NCBI GenBank assembly: GCA_030648495.1 | Contig: JAUSHV010000045.1 | Location: 1 to 54,804 of the forward strand | Source: a bacterium | Lineage (GTDB): Bacteria > Patescibacteriota > Minisyncoccia > UBA11713 > 2-01-FULL-45-33 | Length of the DNA: 54,804 bases | Reading direction: 5' to 3' | Shown here: positions 3,499 through 36,080 of the stretch, one piece after another | Position numbering within the stretch: position 1 is the first letter of the stretch | Layout of the letters: every line of letters starts with the position of its first letter | The notes under the pieces: model-generated | The model's database searches: none | The model's input: the letters and a program-made list of their open reading frames with translations, nothing else | What the model was told of the DNA's origin: nothing | Position numbers and translations under genes: made by a program

Positions 3499-5094
3499 CT
3501 ACATCTTCTCGGGGGCGGCAATGCCCATCAAGGTAAGTGTTTGTTTTAGAGTTTTTTTGGTTGCCGAAACCAAAGCCAGGCGGGCTTGGGTTAGCTCTTT
3601 ATTTTTCGTATCTATCACTAAACATTTTTCATAAAAATTCGTAAAGGTTTGCGCGAGTTCGTAAACATATTTAGTGAGCCTGTGTGCTTGATAGTCATCG
3701 GTAATGTCTTCGATAATTTCGTGGAGCTGAAGTATTTTTTTGATGAGAGCCAGTTCTTCGGGCTTATCAAGAAGCATAAGGTCGGCTTTCTTGCCCGGCT
3801 TCCCTTTCCGTAAAATACTGCATGAACGCGCGTGCGCGTATTGAACATAATATACGGGATTTTTCTTGCTTCTTTCTTTTGCCAAATCCATATCAAAATC
3901 CATGTGGGTATTTGGGCTACGTTCCAAAAAGAACCACCTCGCGGCGTCTACCCCGACTTCTTTTAACAATTCATCCAAAGTCACAAACTCTCCGCTCCGC
4001 TTGGACATTTTTACTTCCTTTCCTCCTGAAATTAAACGAACAAGCTGCATGATAATAATTTGCAATCTAGCCGGCTCAACACCAATCGCCTCCACGCCTT
4101 TTTTCATGCGCTCTATATAGCCATGATGATCCGCTCCCCAAATATCTATTGCGATATCAAATTTTCTTTTCATAAATTTGTCATAATGATAGGCTAAATC
4201 AGCCAAAAAATAGGTTGACTCTTTATTGGACTTTATTACCACGGCATCTGCCAACCATAGAGCGCCTTCTTTTTCATGAAGAACTTTTTTCTTATTTAAA
4301 AATGTAAGGATTTTTTTTAGCTCGTTTTTTTTGTGCAAATTTTTGTCTTCCGAATACCAGACATCAAATTTTATTCCTGCTTTTATAAGAGATACTTTTA
4401 TTTCTTTAAGCAAACTCGCTGCCGCCTGCGCCGCCGTTTTTTCTTTTAATTTTTTGATGTATTCGCCCTTATAAAGCTCTTCGCGCGCGGGGATTTTTCC
4501 TTCCGCCGCCAAAATGGACTCGCCTAAAAGCTTTATCTGATTTCCGGCATCATTTATATAATATTCGCGAGTAACTTTGCGTCCAACAGCACTCAAAACA
4601 TTCGCGAGCGCATCGCCGTAAAATCCTCCTCGTCCATTTGCCATAGTTAAAGGCCCCGTCGGATTCGCTGAAATAAATTCTATGTTGATTTTTTTGCTAG
4701 TCTCGCGCTTTCCGTTTCGCTCGGTCTTAACCCTCTCTCCGGGGGCTCCGACGCCCTCGCGCTCCGAAAAACGCTCGCCTCTTCGCGAAAAAATCGAAAG
4801 GTTTTCGACTAAGGCCTCGCGCGCAATAAAAAAATTCAAAAAGCCTGGACCTGCGGATTCGATCCTTTCAATGATTTTTCCCAACTTGGGAGCTCGGCTT
4901 CCAAGCGTGGCTTTCATCCATTCCGCAACTTCTTTCGGTCCGCCAGCTGGCGGATTTCCAATTTTCTTAGCCAGCACCAAAGCAATGTTCGATGAATAAT
5001 CTCCATGCTCGGAGTTCTCCGGGCGTTCAACGGAAAAAACCGTGCCCTTTGGCACCAATTTTTCTATTTCTTCTCTAATTTGCGCGCGAAACAT
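3499..5094 (-). CDS. argS: Arginyl-tRNA synthetase
   Basis: 531 aa. Motifs: EFISANPTGPL, DIWGADHHGY, KMSKRSGEFVTLDELL, and a C-terminal anticodon-binding helix region ending ..GIAAPEKM. Confidence 0.9.
   Translation of the reverse strand: MFRAQIREEIEKLVPKGTVFSVERPENSEHGDYSSNIALVLAKKIGNPPAGGPKEVAEWMKATLGSRAPKLGKIIERIESAGPGFLNFFIAREALVENLSIFSRRGERFSEREGVGAPGERVKTERNGKRETSKKINIEFISANPTGPLTMANGRGGFYGDALANVLSAVGRKVTREYYINDAGNQIKLLGESILAAEGKIPAREELYKGEYIKKLKEKTAAQAAASLLKEIKVSLIKAGIKFDVWYSEDKNLHKKNELKKILTFLNKKKVLHEKEGALWLADAVVIKSNKESTYFLADLAYHYDKFMKRKFDIAIDIWGADHHGYIERMKKGVEAIGVEPARLQIIIMQLVRLISGGKEVKMSKRSGEFVTLDELLKEVGVDAARWFFLERSPNTHMDFDMDLAKERSKKNPVYYVQYAHARSCSILRKGKPGKKADLMLLDKPEELALIKKILQLHEIIEDITDDYQAHRLTKYVYELAQTFTNFYEKCLVIDTKNKELTQARLALVSATKKTLKQTLTLMGIAAPEKM
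4696..4795. repeat. Repeat family B copy, in frame inside argS
   Basis: 4727-4754 (ttaaccctctctccgggggctccgacgc) matches the reverse complement of 33651-33678 at 27 of 28 positions. Flanking blocks tctcgcgc and cgctcgcct are also shared. Visibly GC-richer than the rest of the gene. Confidence 0.8.
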
Positions 5095-14369: not shown

Positions 14370-14399
14370 AGCCTTATTATGTCTCTTTTTTTTGTTTTG

Positions 14400-14749
14400 T
14401 GGAAGTGCCGGGAATCGAACCCGGGTCGGAAAAGTTTGAATTCGGCGGTTGACAAGCTTAGTTGCTCAGCGTTAGCCAAGACTTTTGCCCTTATTCAAAT
14501 GTTAAGGCGGGCTTATTTAACATTGCCTCGCTAATATTACACCCGGATTCTTCTTAGCGAGAATCAAAAGACCGGATGCCTACGCGTTAAGCGTAAGAAG
14601 TGGCAAGCTGCATTGGCGAACCAAAAACAGCAGCTACTTTTTTAAATAAGTTTGCACTTATTGTGTTGTGAAGATAATTTTAAGAGCGAGCTTCACATAC
14701 TCTGCCTGAACGCGTGAAACCGTACTCTTCCTCGAGGCCGATCACTCCC
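14400..14749 (-). ncRNA. ssrA: tmRNA (SsrA)
   Basis: Minus-strand 5' GGGAGUG pairs with 3' CACUUCC-A, giving a 7-bp acceptor stem with a G3-U wobble. T-arm CCGGG-UUCGAUU-CCCGG. Internal tag ORF GCA AAC .. TAC GCT TAA = ANLFKKVAAVFGSPMQLATSYA*. CCA is not encoded. smpB is adjacent. Confidence 0.85.
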
Positions 14750-14779
14750 ATATTGGTAAAACCTAAACCCTTTCCTCCG

Positions 14780-14871
14780 GCGCAACATTTTTTAAGACAC
14801 GGATATTTTCTTGCTAGAAAATTCCTCGTGCTTGCGCCGGTCGCGCTCGCAAGGTCTTCAAAAATATTCGC
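14780..14871 (-). repeat. Repeat family A, copy 1 (sense on the minus strand)
   Basis: The reverse complement aligns end to end with 14952-15041 and with rc(33517-33612). See findings. Confidence 0.8.
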
Positions 14872-14951
14872 CCTCGGGAAGCGTTATTTTCGGTTTTTTT
14901 ATTTAAACGAGAATAAAAATTTTACTGGCGCTTTCCTAAAGTTGGCGCGGG

Positions 14952-15041
14952 CGCAAACTTTGCAAGACCTTGCGCAGGGCGACGGCCCGAGCAGAGCAAT
15001 CCGCCAGCAGGCGGATATGCGTGTCCTTGCAAATTTTGTGC
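14952..15041 (+). repeat. Repeat family A, copy 2 (sense on the plus strand)
   Basis: gcaaactttgcaagaccttgcgcag-GGGCgacgGCCC-gagcagagcaat-CCGCCagcaGGCGG-atatgcgtgtccttgcaaattttgtgc. Confidence 0.8.
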
Positions 15042-15082
15042 CAAGACAACAGAAAGCGCTCGCTAAAATTTTTATTCCCTAT

Positions 15083-15529
15083 TCAAATCTCTTTCAAAGT
15101 TCTCTCAATCTTTCGCTTGTCCTCGCGCTCTTTGATGCGCGCCCGTTCGTCGTATTTTTTGAGCCGCCGCGCGACCGCAATTTCTAGCTTGATTCTGTTA
15201 CCTTTAGTATATACCTTTATTGGCAGTATTGTCAAGCCCTTTTGGGCGACCTTACCAAGCAGGTAATCAATCTCTTTTTTAGTCAGCAAAAGCTTACGTT
15301 CACGCGTGGGATTATATTCTTTCGGGGTGTTTTTTGGCTGATAGGGAGAGATATTCGCGCCGACCAGAAAAAATTCTCCGTGCCTAGGAAAAATATATGT
15401 TCCCTCTAAATTCATGTGGTGAGTTTTTACGGATTTCACCTCCAAACCCAAAAGTGAAATACCGGCTTCATAAGTTTCGAGCATCTCAAATTCGTGCCAC
15501 GCTTTTCTATTTTCCGCTAAAGAAGCCAT
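15083..15529 (-). CDS. smpB: SsrA-binding protein
   Basis: 148 aa: NRKAWHEFEMLETYEAGISLLGLEVKS.., and a basic C-terminal tail. Confidence 0.9.
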   Translation of the reverse strand: MASLAENRKAWHEFEMLETYEAGISLLGLEVKSVKTHHMNLEGTYIFPRHGEFFLVGANISPYQPKNTPKEYNPTRERKLLLTKKEIDYLLGKVAQKGLTILPIKVYTKGNRIKLEIAVARRLKKYDERARIKEREDKRKIERTLKEI

Positions 15530-31329: not shown

Positions 31330-31354
31330 CCCGCTACAGGGCTATTTTTATTTT
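31327..31354 (+). terminator. Intrinsic (bidirectional) terminator
   Basis: tagccc-gctaca-gggcta followed by tttttatttt. Confidence 0.7.
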
Positions 31355-32232
31355 CCCGAAATTAATTTCAATGTGCCGTTGCTAATGCTTAACTTAATCG
31401 TTCCGTCCAAGTCAGTGCGGAAAATTTTTGCACCGATAGCTTCCAGATTTGAAAGTGTTTGTTGGGTAGGATGTCCGTAACGATTTTTTGCGCCAACCGA
31501 AATTATGGCATATTCGGGTTTTGTGGCTTCGAGAAAAAATGTATTGCTTGAAGTCTTAGAACCGTGATGCCCGACCTTTAAAACATCTATGTCGCCGACC
31601 GCGTCCTCATAAACAAGCCGCGCCTCTATATTTTTCTCCGCATCTCCCATAAATAAGATTTTTTTGTCTTCAAAATTAAGCTCGCCGACGACGGTGGCGT
31701 CATGCACGTTTTTAAGGACCTCTCCATCATACGAGCGTTCCGGATACAAAAATTTCAAAACTGCGCCACCATAGAAATACATTTCTACAGGGCTATCAAT
31801 AATAATTTTTTTAATATTTTTAGCTTTTATAATCCGCTCAAATTCATGATATTCAGCGGTGTTATAGTCGGCGCCGCTCTCTATTACCATACCGATCTTG
31901 TATCGATTAAGCACATCTATAAGCCCTGTAACATGGTCGGCGTGTTGATGCGTGAGTATTACCAAATCAATTGAATTATCATAGTACGGCATTACACGAC
32001 CTAACTCCGAAAGAACTTTTGTGTTCGGTCCGCCATCGATTAATATTTGTGTGCCGTCCTTGGCCGATATAAATTCAGAATCTCCCTGCCCCACATCAAA
32101 AAAATAAACAGAGAGATCCGGTTCCGCCGCTTTTTTAAAAACAGAGGACCAAATAACAAAATTAAAACCGAAAAACAACAATATTACACAGCTTAAAATT
32201 TGTTTTCTATAAATTTCAAAAAACTTTCGCAT
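31348..32232 (-). CDS. comEC: ComEC C-terminal metallo-beta-lactamase domain, as a separate ORF
   Basis: N-terminal TM segment, FFDVGQGDS, ILTHQHADHV, VGHHGS. Confidence 0.8.
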   Translation of the reverse strand: MRKFFEIYRKQILSCVILLFFGFNFVIWSSVFKKAAEPDLSVYFFDVGQGDSEFISAKDGTQILIDGGPNTKVLSELGRVMPYYDNSIDLVILTHQHADHVTGLIDVLNRYKIGMVIESGADYNTAEYHEFERIIKAKNIKKIIIDSPVEMYFYGGAVLKFLYPERSYDGEVLKNVHDATVVGELNFEDKKILFMGDAEKNIEARLVYEDAVGDIDVLKVGHHGSKTSSNTFFLEATKPEYAIISVGAKNRYGHPTQQTLSNLEAIGAKIFRTDLDGTIKLSISNGTLKLISGK

Positions 32233-33823
32233 AATGTTTGTATGCCCAATAAAAAAGACATGCGTAAACCGACGCCAGCAAGAAGAAAGGCAAAAAACTA
32301 AATTGAATCATGCTAAAAGAAAGCGACCCGAAAAATTTAACAAAATAGATTTGATAAGAAATCAATAAGTAAGCCGCGCTTGCGATGATTTTTCCTAAAA
32401 ACACGGAGGCGAAAGCTGATATCGCACCTAAAAAACTAAAAAGCATAACGGCAGGCACCGCCCATAAAACAAGTATATTGACCAATGGGGAAAACCAAGA
32501 AATCGCCCCACCCCAGGATAAAAGCAGCGGCATAACGAAAATTTGCGCCGCAAAAGAAGATGAGGCGTTTTCCCGCAAACCGAAGGCTTTGGGCAGAAAC
32601 CAAAAAAACTTTTTAAAAAAAGGCGATGCGACAATAAGGCCTAGTGTTGCTAAAAAAGAAAGCTGAAACCCACGGTCAAAACGCATGAGCATCGGATTCC
32701 ATAAAACCATCAGAAACGCCGCCCAAATCAAGGCCAAGAGCGCGATATTTTTCCGCCCGCTTTTTAACGCCAAAAGTCCGATTATAGCCATAACAGCTGA
32801 ACGCACAGCTGCGGCCTCTGCCCCGGACATTAATGTAAAAGCCAAAATGGCAAATATTGCCAAACTCCATGCCGCCGTTTCAGAAACAATAAATCCAAAA
32901 AACGCCATTACAAATACTCCGACAATCGTAATATTGTAGCCCGACAAAACCAATATATGGATAGTCCCGCTTTTTCTAAAATCATCAATTAAATCTTTGT
33001 CCAAGACGCCCTGGTTTCCTAAAAGCATCCCGTCGGCCAAAGAAGCGTGCGGTTCAGGTAAAATATTTCTTAGATTTTCTTCAAATTTATCTTTGATGAA
33101 GAAAAGCGCGCTCTTTGCCTTAGTACCAAACAAAGTTTGTGTTTTCGTCAAATCGCTGACTTCAGGAAAAACCATCTCCGCGTAAATTTCGCTCTTTGCC
33201 AGATATTTTTTAACATCAAAATTTCCGAAGTCTTCCGGCTCCAAAATTTTTCCTTTTATCTCCAAAGTGTCGCCGTATTTATACTGCGGATAGATTCTTT
33301 TCGTTACCAAAATGCGGCCGAGGTCCGTCGAAACAACTATGCGCTGGGAATTTTCTGTCAGTTTCGCGGAGATAACCATGCCGCTCAAATTCATAACTTC
33401 ATCGTAATGCAAATGCAATTCGTCTTTTGCAATATTATTTTCAAAATATGAAAAACGCAGGATGCCGAGGAGGAAAAAGAAAATGAGCAGACAAAGCATT
33501 GCGCCCTTTACCTCAGCACCAAAGTTTCCAAGGACACGCATATTTTTCTGCTGAAAAATTTCTCTGCTCGTCCCGCCATGGCGGGACTGCGCAAGGTCTT
33601 GAAAACTTTGTGCTTTCGGTTCAGGCGAGCGCTGTTCGTATTTCGAATGCGCGTCGGAGCCCCCGAAGAGAGGGTTAAGCGCGAGAAATACGAATAGCGC
33701 AAGCATGAACCCTAACAAACCAAAAACCAAATAATTAGGAATATCAAAAAACGAGCGAAGCGCTACTCCGGTCAAAAACGCAAGAATTAAAAATGGGATT
33801 TTAAAATAAGCGCGCTGGTTCAT
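32216..33823 (-). CDS. comEC: ComEC/Rec2 competence channel, membrane domain
   Basis: 535 aa polytopic protein with an OB-like N-domain and the competence domain (HILVLSGYNITIV..). Overlaps the MBL ORF by 17 nt. Confidence 0.8.
   Translation of the reverse strand: MNQRAYFKIPFLILAFLTGVALRSFFDIPNYLVFGLLGFMLALFVFLALNPLFGGSDAHSKYEQRSPEPKAQSFQDLAQSRHGGTSREIFQQKNMRVLGNFGAEVKGAMLCLLIFFFLLGILRFSYFENNIAKDELHLHYDEVMNLSGMVISAKLTENSQRIVVSTDLGRILVTKRIYPQYKYGDTLEIKGKILEPEDFGNFDVKKYLAKSEIYAEMVFPEVSDLTKTQTLFGTKAKSALFFIKDKFEENLRNILPEPHASLADGMLLGNQGVLDKDLIDDFRKSGTIHILVLSGYNITIVGVFVMAFFGFIVSETAAWSLAIFAILAFTLMSGAEAAAVRSAVMAIIGLLALKSGRKNIALLALIWAAFLMVLWNPMLMRFDRGFQLSFLATLGLIVASPFFKKFFWFLPKAFGLRENASSSFAAQIFVMPLLLSWGGAISWFSPLVNILVLWAVPAVMLFSFLGAISAFASVFLGKIIASAAYLLISYQIYFVKFFGSLSFSMIQFSFLPFFLLASVYACLFYWAYKHYAKVF
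33517..33612 (-). repeat. Repeat family A, copy 4, in frame inside comEC
   Basis: rc = cacaaagttttcaagaccttgcgcag-TCCCGCCatGGCGGGA-cgagcagagaaat-TTTTCagcaGAAAA-atatgcgtgtccttggaaactttggtg. Confidence 0.85.
33623..33690 (-). repeat. Repeat family B copy, in frame inside comEC and adjacent to repeat A
   Basis: rc(33651-33678) matches 4727-4754 at 27 of 28 positions. Shares tctcgcgc and cgctcgcct. Confidence 0.8.
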
Positions 33824-36042: not shown

Positions 36043-36080
36043 GCACAAAATAAAAAAGCGTTGAAATATCAACGCTTTTT
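36043..36080 (-). terminator. Intrinsic terminator after pgk
   Basis: 12-bp stem aaaaagcgttga / tcaacgcttttt with loop aata. U-run on the minus strand. Confidence 0.7.

What the first reader, a model, noticed from the sequence alone, without database searches (positions are those of the whole stretch)
33509..33690. The comEC TM2-TM3 loop is encoded entirely by repeats B and A inserted in frame
ComEC residues ~48-105 (LNPLFGGSDAHSKYEQRSPEPKAQSFQDLAQSRHGGTSREIFQQKNMRVLGNFGAEV) lie between two hydrophobic helices. They are encoded by repeat B (33623-33690) immediately followed by repeat A (33517-33612).

The reading frame stays open through about 170 nt of palindromic, GC-rich repeat DNA.

The intergenic copy 14952-15041 translates in the equivalent frame to a similar peptide, QTLQDLAQGDGPSRAIRQQADMRVLANFVPRQ. 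That is why the track shows a spurious ORF at 14714-15187. The element therefore seems to be built without stop codons in at least one frame.

This is the behaviour described for Rickettsia palindromic elements, which are selfish repeats inserted in frame into protein genes. It has not to my knowledge been described for this kind of genome.
Basis: partly seen in the sequence, partly recalled or inferred. Interest (0 to 1): 0.72.

Follow-up and report, generated by a model that had tools for sequence, protein, structure and literature searches.

The report
Mobile palindromic repeats translated inside genes
Two short, hairpin-forming repeat elements sit in frame inside the DNA-uptake gene comEC of a tiny groundwater bacterium (Candidatus Giovannonibacteria) and encode its whole TM2-TM3 loop; the same elements sit in frame in many other essential genes of related genomes, a behaviour so far known almost only from Rickettsia.

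Summary

**What is in the window.** It is a Cand. Giovannonibacteria (CPR) contig. ComEC residues about 38-107 are encoded by repeat B (33623-33711) followed directly by repeat A (33505-33625), both in frame. Other copies in the window:
- B inside argS, read from the opposite strand.
- Two head-to-head A copies between smpB and the tmRNA gene, which create the spurious ORF.
- A deleted A relic at a second comEC site.

**Evidence it is not ancestral.** Distant ComEC orthologs have a short, unrelated loop. Close orthologs show the same insert, or partial deletions of it.

**Spread.** In about 880 kb of related DNA I found 29 distinct A and 69 distinct B copies. About three quarters lie inside long ORFs, including aminoacyl-tRNA synthetases, GatB, RecR, DnaG, UvrC, Mfd, MiaA, HrcA and Map. 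They occur in both orientations.

**Anatomy.**
- The A consensus has no stop codon in any of six frames, yet all 19 genic copies use one sense or one antisense phase.
- B is read in four frames.
- Both keep their hairpins through compensatory changes.

**What is missing.** I found no transposase, no target-site duplication and no expression data.

**Verdict.** This is a new, sequence-unrelated family that behaves like Rickettsia palindromic elements. I found no prior description for CPR bacteria.

The parts
33623..33711 (-). Repeat B copy inside comEC. It encodes residues about 38-67 (GFMLALFVFLALNPLFGGSDAHSKYEQRSP): its left arm forms the end of TM2, and its core and right arm form the first part of the loop.
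   Evidence: BLAST and nhmmer hits; alignment of 30 copies with covarying arms; folding z-score -4.2 on the sense strand and -6.1 on the antisense strand.
33505..33625 (-). Repeat A copy inside comEC, directly abutting B. It encodes residues about 67-107 (PEPKAQSFQDLAQSRHGGTSREIFQQKNMRVLGNFGAEVKG).
   Evidence: Covariance-model hit of 108 bits, E 5e-26; alignments; folding z-score -4.8.
33113..33154 (-). Relic of a second A element at ComEC site 2 (residues 224-237, DLTKTQTLFGTKAK). Both terminal arms are kept and the central roughly 70 nt are deleted.
   Evidence: DNA alignment with L004, L001 and L003, which carry full A copies at this site, and with L002 and L005, which carry none.
32216..33823 (-). 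Host gene comEC (DUF4131 plus Competence domains). It is intact despite the inserts.
4697..4794 (+). Repeat B copy inside argS (argS is on the minus strand, so the opposite strand of B is translated: RGERFSEREGVGAPGERVKTERNGKRE). It lies in the linker between the N-terminal domain and the catalytic domain. Its hairpin has decayed.
   Evidence: folding z-score 0.09.
3499..5094 (-). Host gene argS (arginyl-tRNA synthetase).
   Evidence: Pfam Arg_tRNA_synt_N, tRNA-synt_1d and DALR_1.
14939..15052 (+). Intergenic A copy (IG2) between smpB and the tmRNA gene.
   Evidence: Covariance-model hit of 116 bits.
14769..14883 (-). Intergenic A copy (IG1), head-to-head with IG2. It belongs to the AATTTTC..GAAAAT subfamily.
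   Evidence: Covariance-model hit of 99 bits.
14714..15187 (+). Spurious 157-aa ORF created because both intergenic A copies are free of stop codons in this frame.
   Evidence: No Pfam hit; overlaps the tmRNA gene and smpB, both on the other strand.

Best explanation
A (about 110-117 nt) and B (about 80-90 nt) are two families of small, non-autonomous, hairpin-forming interspersed repeats. They have spread through the genomes of Giovannonibacteria and some neighbouring Parcubacteria.

**Why they persist inside genes.**
- These genomes are mostly coding, so most landing places are genes.
- Copies persist where three conditions hold: the element is stop-free in the host frame, the net length change is a multiple of three, and the site is a tolerant surface loop or linker.
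- The element is then transcribed and translated as part of the host protein.

**What happened in comEC.** A B-A composite landed at the short cytoplasmic connection between TM2 and TM3. It now supplies about 70 residues:
- B's left arm became the end of TM2.
- The rest is a probably disordered loop.

**Decay.** Elements later decay by internal deletions between their own arms or at microhomologies. This leaves short in-frame scars that become ordinary loop sequence.

**Shown here:** the repeats; their presence in about 16 unrelated gene families in both orientations; open frames; covarying hairpins; deletion derivatives; absence of the loop in distant orthologs.

**Inferred:**
- That the elements are translated, from the maintenance of ORFs.
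- That they moved as mobile DNA through a single-stranded intermediate that needs the fold. This rests on the covariation among subfamilies and on the G-U over A-C asymmetry of A.
- That the restriction of A to two phases reflects selection on the encoded peptide rather than phase-specific insertion.

The enzyme that moves them is unknown.
For: **Repeats and orthologs**
- The repeats are real and statistically significant.
- In the ComEC alignment, distant orthologs lack the loop. P0002 has B+A, and P0005, P0006 and P0003 carry truncated versions.
- The L002 junction joins B's left arm to A's right end at a shared CTT.
- At ComEC site 2, a full A copy is present forward in L004 and reversed in L001 and L003. 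The window keeps only the two arms, and L002 and L005 have nothing.

**Spread**
- An exact-pattern scan found 7 and 5 A copies in two Giovannonibacteria reference genomes and 2 in Nomurabacteria.
- The B core occurs in 76 metagenome loci.
- nhmmer gives 29 distinct A and 69 distinct B copies.
- 21 of 29 A copies and 48 of 64 B copies lie in ORFs open for at least 40 codons on each side. For random segments the figure is 61%. Two of the 21 A copies are the intergenic pair under the spurious ORF, which leaves 19 genic copies.
- Hosts include RecR, GatB, LeuRS, a class I aminoacyl-tRNA synthetase (IleRS/ValRS-like), GT4, HrcA, MPG, MiaA, DnaG, PGM, Mfd, UvrC, CCA-adding enzyme, ArgRS, Map and ComEC.

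**Reading frames**
- The A consensus is open in all six frames. Copies average 3.54 open frames, against 1.39 after shuffling.
- All 19 genic A copies use one sense phase (15) or one antisense phase (4).
- B is used in four frames (17, 9, 12 and 9 copies).

**Structure**
- A forms a three-way junction. 96.6% of cells are paired against 78% after shuffling, and 22 of 33 pairs show compensatory changes.
- In B, 12 of 21 pairs show compensatory changes.
- In A, G-U cells outnumber A-C cells 31 to 5 on the element's own sense strand. This holds in copies antisense to their host gene.

**Other**
- The ComEC insert is modelled at low confidence between two confident helices.
- Peptide searches find no protein family.
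Against: - **No clean target-site duplication.** Net length gains (about 27-31 aa for A) are smaller than the element, so insertions look like replacements.
- **No mover identified.** I did not identify a transposase or a full-length parent element.
- **No recent mobility seen.** There is no presence/absence polymorphism between near-identical strains. Mobility is therefore historical inference.
- **Same-site occupancy is ambiguous.** A or B occupies the same site in different lineages in Map, LeuRS, HrcA and MiaA, and ComEC site 2 holds A in both orientations. One old insertion followed by inversion or conversion could explain this as well as repeated insertion.
- **Unexplained conservation.** The B block and A's ends are 95-98% identical between the window and L001, while the gene as a whole is 74% identical. 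Simple neutral hitch-hiking does not predict this.
- **Ascertainment.** B copies were found with a pattern that fixes their core.
- **No expression data.** I had no transcript or protein data.
Confidence: 0.8

Rival explanations
1. The loop is an ancestral ComEC segment, and the nucleotide similarity elsewhere is chance or a local duplication.
For: Close relatives (P0002; partly P0005, P0006 and P0003) share sequence at this position.
Against: - Distant orthologs have short, unrelated connections.
- The same DNA occurs in about 16 unrelated gene families, in both orientations and in up to four frames.
- Peptide searches of 1.8 and 5.8 billion proteins find no domain family.
Confidence: 0.02
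2. The elements are removed before or after translation, like an intron or an intein, so the loop is never part of mature ComEC.
For: - They are strongly structured, with covariation.
- CPR bacteria are known to tolerate insertions in rRNA genes (PMC11270868, abstract seen).
- One copy (L001 map) has a TAG at its junction.
Against: - An excised element would not need to be stop-free and in frame, yet 19 of 19 genic A copies and 47 of 47 genic B copies keep the host frame open.
- Deletion relics remain in frame.
- No Rfam ribozyme or intron model matches.
- The L001 TAG is TCG in the otherwise identical L040.
Confidence: 0.05
3. The elements are kept for a host function: either an mRNA structure (pausing, stability, processing) or a useful peptide module. 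On this view they are maintained by selection in place rather than spreading selfishly.
For: - The block is 95-98% identical between the window and L001 against 74% for the gene.
- Hairpins are maintained by compensatory changes.
- A uses only two phases.
- The intergenic pair sits between smpB and ssrA.
Against: - Copies are lost or truncated freely in sister lineages (P0003, P0005, P0006; the window's site 2) without loss of the gene.
- The argS copy has lost its fold (z-score 0.09).
- Both orientations occur relative to transcription.
- The G-U asymmetry of A follows the element, not the host transcript.
- The covariation is between subfamilies, as expected for diverging master copies.
Confidence: 0.1

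Closest known systems
Rickettsia palindromic elements (RPE-1 to RPE-10; Ogata et al. 2000 Science, 2002 Genome Res, as summarised in PMC10969869)
   Same: - Palindromic interspersed repeats of about 100-150 bp in a small, reduced genome.
- Many copies inserted in frame in unrelated housekeeping genes, with a conserved encoded peptide.
- Also found in intergenic regions.
- No known transposase.
- Insertions lie in loops compatible with the host fold.
   Different: - Different phylum (CPR/Patescibacteria, not Alphaproteobacteria).
- No sequence relationship detected or expected.
- A folds as a three-way junction rather than a simple hairpin.
- B is translated in four frames and both orientations, so there is no single conserved peptide.
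- A and B recur as a B-A composite.
- The elements are richer in GC than their host genome.
Intragenic MITEs of other bacteria (Coxiella QMITE1, intragenic ERIC, Anabaena MITEs; PMC10969869, PMC5896051)
   Same: Small non-autonomous elements with inverted ends that occasionally make in-frame fusions with host ORFs.
   Different: In those families intragenic copies are the minority, and target-site duplications and cognate insertion sequences are usually identifiable. Here about three quarters of copies are intragenic, and I found no target-site duplication or parent insertion sequence.
REP/BIME elements mobilised by RAYT (IS200/IS605-type Y1 transposases), and palindrome-associated transposable elements
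   Same: Recognition of a hairpin in one DNA strand would fit three observations here: the covariation, the strand asymmetry of A, and the absence of target-site duplications and classical cut-and-paste signatures.
   Different: REPs are 20-40 nt, extragenic and carry a GTAG or CGTC head (PMC3733652). A and B are longer, intragenic and lack that head. No RAYT was looked for genome-wide.
Coding palindromes in Nematomorpha mitochondrial genes (PMC6649704) and GC-rich palindromic clusters in fungal mitochondrial genes
   Same: Long inverted repeats embedded in protein-coding sequence, with both arms translated.
   Different: Those are in organelle genomes. They are not shown to be the same dispersed family across many genes in both orientations.

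Membership tests
RPE-like protein-coding palindromic repeats (as a kind) | Short (about 80-150 nt) imperfect palindrome with a predicted stable fold | tested here: met
   Folding z-scores of -4.0 to -6.1 for the ComEC and intergenic copies; consensus structures with 22 of 33 (A) and 12 of 21 (B) compensatory pairs.
RPE-like protein-coding palindromic repeats (as a kind) | Many dispersed copies per genome at non-orthologous sites | tested here: met
   - 5 copies plus 1 relic in this 54.8-kb window.
- At least 7 and at least 5 exact-pattern A copies in two reference genomes.
- 29 distinct A and 69 distinct B copies in 883 kb.
- No whole-genome count was possible.
RPE-like protein-coding palindromic repeats (as a kind) | Inserted in frame in unrelated protein-coding genes without disrupting them | tested here: met
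   19 genic A copies and 47 genic B copies keep the host ORF open. Hosts were identified by Pfam.
RPE-like protein-coding palindromic repeats (as a kind) | Absent from orthologs in related genomes (an insertion, not an ancestral segment) | tested here: met
   ComEC; Map, empty in the window and L004; GatB, empty in L062; the distant ArgRS in L097.
RPE-like protein-coding palindromic repeats (as a kind) | The element-encoded segment is present in mRNA and protein | not testable with these tools
   No transcriptome or proteome was available. This is inferred only from the maintenance of open frames.
Rickettsia RPE families proper (homology) | Sequence similarity to the RPE-1 to RPE-10 consensus sequences | not testable with these tools
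- Distant-mode blastn against PLSDB plasmids and against phages found nothing.
- No Rfam family matches.
- I do not file A or B as RPE family members.
MITE | Terminal inverted repeats | tested here: met
   A ends are TTTGCC...GGCAAA, with a 13-bp outer stem. B has covarying outer arms of about 15 bp.
MITE | Target-site duplication flanking the element | tested here: inconclusive
   The filled/empty pairs available are only 75-85% identical, and insertions look like replacements of 10-20 nt. No duplication was recognisable.
MITE | A cognate autonomous insertion sequence with the same ends | not tested
   Scans of the genome collections were exhausted, and no transposase search was made.
REP/BIME | 20-40 nt, extragenic, with a GTAG or CGTC head | tested here: not met
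   The elements are 80-117 nt and about 75% are intragenic. Their ends are TTTGCC (A) and CTCGCGC (B).
Self-splicing intron or small ribozyme | Match to a known catalytic RNA model; no requirement for an open frame | tested here: not met
   Rfam at the gathering threshold and at E up to 10 returns only noise. Open frames are maintained.

The most novel reading that the evidence does not exclude
A is not an ordinary DNA transposon remnant. On this reading it is a strand-specific, structure-dependent mobile element. Its three-way-junction fold acts in a single-stranded RNA or DNA intermediate. It enters genes in one defined codon phase per orientation and preferentially re-targets sites that already hold a copy or relic.

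This would explain three observations:
- A or B, or A in both orientations, occupies the same sites in different lineages.
- A copies use only two of six open frames.
- The ComEC block is 95-98% identical in genes that are 74% identical overall.

That would be a previously undescribed way of spreading inside coding sequence. It would also be a systematic source of new protein loops, and even transmembrane residues, in CPR bacteria.
Probability: 0.15. Interest if true: 0.85.

Novelty: new member of a known kind. Interest (0 to 1): 0.62.

Why it matters
In-frame selfish palindromes have been treated as a peculiarity of Rickettsia for 25 years, and how they spread is still unknown.

**A second, independent case.**
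- It occurs in free-living or episymbiotic CPR bacteria with roughly 1-Mb genomes, so the phenomenon is a recurrent outcome of genome reduction plus hairpin repeats.
- Unlike Rickettsia, CPR bacteria are represented by thousands of divergent metagenome genomes. Insertion, inversion, decay and the mobilising enzyme can therefore be studied comparatively.

**Practical consequences.**
- The elements lengthen essential proteins such as aminoacyl-tRNA synthetases, GatB, DnaG and ComEC.
- They create spurious ORFs.
- They can mislead homology-based annotation and phylogenomic alignments of CPR genomes.
- In ComEC, part of a transmembrane helix is encoded by repeat DNA, which is a clear example of mobile DNA being built into protein architecture.

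Tried and rejected
1. **Peptide-level searches for the insert.** A profile of A peptides against the 5.8-billion-protein word index returned three tiny ORFs. ComEC residues 47-107 against 1.84 billion representatives returned two unrelated repetitive proteins. This only shows that the insert is not a protein domain family.
2. **Rfam.** Only the tmRNA reached the gathering threshold. There was nothing credible over the insert at E up to 10.
3. **Phage, plasmid and viral collections.** No copies were found, so there is no sign of a phage or plasmid vector.
4. **Target-site duplications.** I looked in filled/empty pairs. The pairs are too divergent and no clean junctions appeared.
5. **L002/P0006 and P0003 as virgin empty sites.** I rejected this because they retain B's left arm and A's right end.
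6. **A strand asymmetry for B like that of A.** Not supported. Outside one invariant U-G, G-U cells number 13 and A-C cells 27.
7. **Arthrobacter pattern hits.** L007, L012 and L021 are chance matches. Neither nhmmer nor the covariance model recognises them.
8. **P0003 DNA.** It could not be retrieved.
Full report
**1. What is at the coordinates**

The window is a 54.8-kb contig (42.7% GC). Its proteins match Candidatus Giovannonibacteria, a member of the Parcubacteria within the CPR.

- ComEC is the 535-aa ORF at 32216-33823 on the minus strand, with Pfam DUF4131 and Competence domains.
- The metallo-beta-lactamase part of ComEC is a separate, overlapping ORF.

A sensitive self-BLAST of the window finds only two repeat families.

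- B: 33623-33703 matches 4702-4780 (78%, E 4e-10).
- A: 33520-33613 matches 14951-15038 (73%, E 5e-9), and there is a further copy at 14779-14876.

Comparison with more copies refines the boundaries to B = 33623-33711 and A = about 33505-33625.

- The two elements abut directly.
- B's left arm encodes the last roughly 12 residues of TM2 (GFMLALFVFLAL).
- A's right end encodes NFGAEVKG, immediately before TM3.
- An AlphaFold model built on 27 orthologs has confident helices at 30-53 and 103-133. Residues 51-101 have pLDDT of 44-51.

**2. The loop is an insertion, not an ancestral segment**

In an alignment of 27 ComEC orthologs, the distant ones (P0034, P0036, P0040, P0044, P0047, P0061, P0062) join TM2 to TM3 by a few unrelated residues. 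Among the closest relatives:

- P0002 (74% identity) has the same B+A.
- P0005 keeps the first half of B fused to the last part of A.
- P0006 and P0003 look empty (FLAL|NFGAE).

The DNA shows that L002 (P0006) still has B's left arm (GCCGTTTCGCTAGCACTT) joined to A's right end (GGAAACTTTGGTGCAGAGG) at a CTT that both elements share. These are therefore deletion derivatives. The B+A insertion predates the split of these lineages.

A second ComEC site, after FPEI at about residue 222, tells the same story.

- L004 has a full A copy in the forward orientation.
- L001 and L003 have a full A copy in the reverse orientation.
- L002 and L005 have nothing.
- The window itself keeps only A's two terminal arms (33113-33154, DLTKTQTLFGTKAK), with the centre deleted.

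**3. The same DNA sits inside many unrelated genes**

Scans:

- An exact-pattern scan for A in one genome per species found 7 and 5 copies in two Giovannonibacteria genomes and 2 in Nomurabacteria. Three Arthrobacter hits proved to be chance.
- The B core pattern found 76 metagenome loci, mostly from groundwater.
- Viral contigs, phages and plasmids gave nothing.

Census and coding context:

- nhmmer over 883 kb gave 29 distinct A and 69 distinct B copies.
- 21 of 29 A copies and 48 of 64 B copies lie within ORFs that stay open for at least 40 codons on both sides.
- The same is true of 61% of random 90-nt segments. The elements therefore do not avoid coding sequence, unlike REPs or typical MITEs.
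- Two of the 21 A copies are the intergenic pair under the spurious ORF, which leaves 19 genic copies.
- Pfam identifies the hosts as RecR, GatB (which carries both A and B), LeuRS, a class I aminoacyl-tRNA synthetase (IleRS/ValRS-like), a GT4 glycosyltransferase (two A copies), HrcA, MPG, MiaA, DnaG, phosphoglucomutase, Mfd, UvrC, CCA-adding enzyme, ArgRS, Map and ComEC.

In the window, argS carries B read from the opposite strand (RGERFSEREGVGAPGERVKTERNGKRE), in the linker before the catalytic domain.

- L096 has the same insert.
- L074 has B in the other orientation at the same site.
- A distant ArgRS in L097 has none.

Some sites are occupied by A in one lineage and by B in another. This is seen in Map, LeuRS, HrcA and MiaA.

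**4. Anatomy**

*Repeat A*

- Consensus: AATTTGCCGAAGGCGCAAATTTTGCAAGACCTTGCGCAG-[short variable hairpin]-CGAGCAGAGCAAT-[hairpin]-ATATGCGTGTCCTTGCAAAATTTGGTGCCGAGGCAAAGG.
- It folds as a 13-bp outer stem, a 4-bp stem and two internal hairpins, which together form a three-way junction.
- On 28 copies, 96.6% of cells are paired against 78% in shuffles and 35-55% when partners are slid. Compensatory changes occur in 22 of 33 pairs. The 28-copy alignment was fitted to the model. The independent MAFFT alignment gives 19 of 33 compensatory pairs.

*Repeat B*

- It has a core, CGCGCTTAACCCTCTCTNCGGGGGCTCCGACGCG. That core was fixed by my search pattern, so its invariance is ascertainment.
- It also has covarying outer arms, with 12 of 21 pairs compensatory.
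- In ComEC, B's arms differ from other copies in a compensatory way, while the left arm codes hydrophobic residues (LALFVFLAL, against the usual LAHSDFLAL).

*Folding*

- The ComEC copies fold much better than shuffles (z-scores -4.2 to -6.1).
- The argS copy has lost its fold (z-score 0.09).

*Strand asymmetry*

- For A, G-U cells outnumber A-C cells 31 to 5 on the element's own sense strand (15 columns against 5).
- This includes copies that lie antisense to their host gene.
- It suggests the fold mattered on one strand of the element, not in the host mRNA.
- Copies are not independent, so this is suggestive only.
- B shows no such asymmetry.

*Composite*

- The B-A composite recurs in L041 (intergenic) and L097.

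**5. Reading frames**

- The 115-nt A consensus has no stop codon in any of the six frames.
- Individual A copies average 3.54 open frames, against 1.39 after shuffling and 1.89 for random genomic segments.
- Even so, all 19 genic A copies are read in one sense phase (15 copies, KAQxLQDLAQRDGASRAIxQQxDMRVLAKxGAE) or in the symmetric antisense phase (4 copies, PxxQxLQGHAYSPxGELLCSxRRAAQGLAK).
- The unused frames encode basic, cysteine-rich peptides. Selection on the peptide is therefore the simplest reading, but phase-specific insertion is not excluded.
- B is not depleted of stops (2.5 open frames against 2.3). TTAA closes one frame per strand. The other four frames are all used, by 17, 9, 12 and 9 copies.
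- The ORF at 14714-15187 is an artefact of the two stop-free intergenic A copies. These lie head-to-head between smpB and the tmRNA gene.

**6. Mechanism**

My best-supported reading is that A and B are non-autonomous, structure-dependent interspersed repeats.

- They land throughout a gene-dense genome.
- They survive where they keep the frame open in a tolerant loop.
- They are translated.
- They then erode by internal deletion into short scars.

*Shown:* distribution, orientations, frames, covariation, deletion series, and absence of the loop from distant orthologs.

*Inferred:*
- Translation, because no expression data were available.
- Mobility through a single-stranded intermediate.
- The cause of the phase restriction.

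*Unknown:* the mobilising enzyme.

*Against a simple cut-and-paste model:*
- There is no recognisable target-site duplication.
- Net gains are smaller than the element.

*Unexplained:* the window and L001 comEC genes are 74% identical overall, but 95-98% identical over B, the ends of A and TM3. This points to nucleotide-level constraint, to conversion, or to re-insertion at the same site.

**7. Comparison with what is known**

The behaviour is that of Rickettsia palindromic elements. A 2024 review describes these as the extreme known case of in-frame MITE-like insertions, and adds only that similar events are 'conceivable' in other prokaryotes (PMC10969869). Other partial analogues:

- Coxiella QMITEs.
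- Intragenic ERIC elements.
- Coding palindromes in Nematomorpha mitochondria.

A and B are not members of the RPE families. No homology could be tested or is expected. The phylum differs, A has a three-way junction, and B is read in four frames. They also fail the REP definition. Six full-text searches found no description of such elements in CPR/Patescibacteria. Only insertions in CPR rRNA genes are documented (PMC11270868).

**8. Verdict**

- The RPE-like interpretation is supported.
- The elements are a new, sequence-unrelated family of a known kind, in a lineage where this has not been reported.
- Interest is moderate to high (0.62).
- The less likely but more novel possibility is a phase-specific, site-re-targeting, single-strand-dependent element. 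It is worth testing with whole-genome and population data.

Noticed in passing
window 14397-15529: The tmRNA gene (14397-14749, minus; Rfam 100.5 bits) and smpB (15083-15529, minus) are separated by the two head-to-head A copies. The pair could form a very long hairpin in a smpB-ssrA transcript.
   Followed up: partly
window 33113-33154: A second A-derived scar lies inside comEC (DLTKTQTLFGTKAK). Both arms of A are kept and the centre is deleted.
   Followed up: yes
window 33450-33720 versus L001 10100-10375: The repeat-derived block plus TM3 is 95-98% identical between two comEC genes that are 74% identical overall. Only the middle of A differs, through a subfamily swap of both internal hairpins. 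This could reflect constraint, conversion or re-insertion. It remains unexplained.
   Followed up: partly
L001 2271-2273 versus L040: The map (methionine aminopeptidase) gene of L001 has a TAG exactly at the left junction of an in-frame B copy. The otherwise identical L040 has TCG there. It may be a pseudogene variant, a sequencing error or a split gene.
   Followed up: partly
L005 10145-10294; L011 2683-2742; proteins P0010, P0012, P0013, P0019, P0029, P0037: A third palindromic family, C (CCCCTCTCC..GGAGAGGGG; peptide PHPPxPSPYQGEGERKE), occupies the same ComEC TM2-TM3 loop in other Giovannonibacteria. In P0037 it also occupies ComEC site 2.
   Followed up: partly
L015 600-3611; L067 6375-9416: The leucyl-tRNA synthetase ORFs of these relatives contain a NUDIX domain (PF00293, residues about 390-520) embedded in the enzyme.
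   Followed up: no
window 31348-32232 and 32216-33823: ComEC is split. The metallo-beta-lactamase domain is a separate ORF that overlaps the Competence-domain ORF by 17 nt. The same arrangement is found in L001-L005.
   Followed up: no
L004 16570-17920; L005 20713-21530; L001 515-1177: Reverse-transcriptase genes (RVT_1), with bAvd in L004 and L005 (DGR-like), lie within 10 kb of comEC in relatives. No link to the repeats was established.
   Followed up: no
window 36053-36080: A 28-nt near-perfect palindrome lies at the 3' end of pgk. It is probably a terminator.
   Followed up: no
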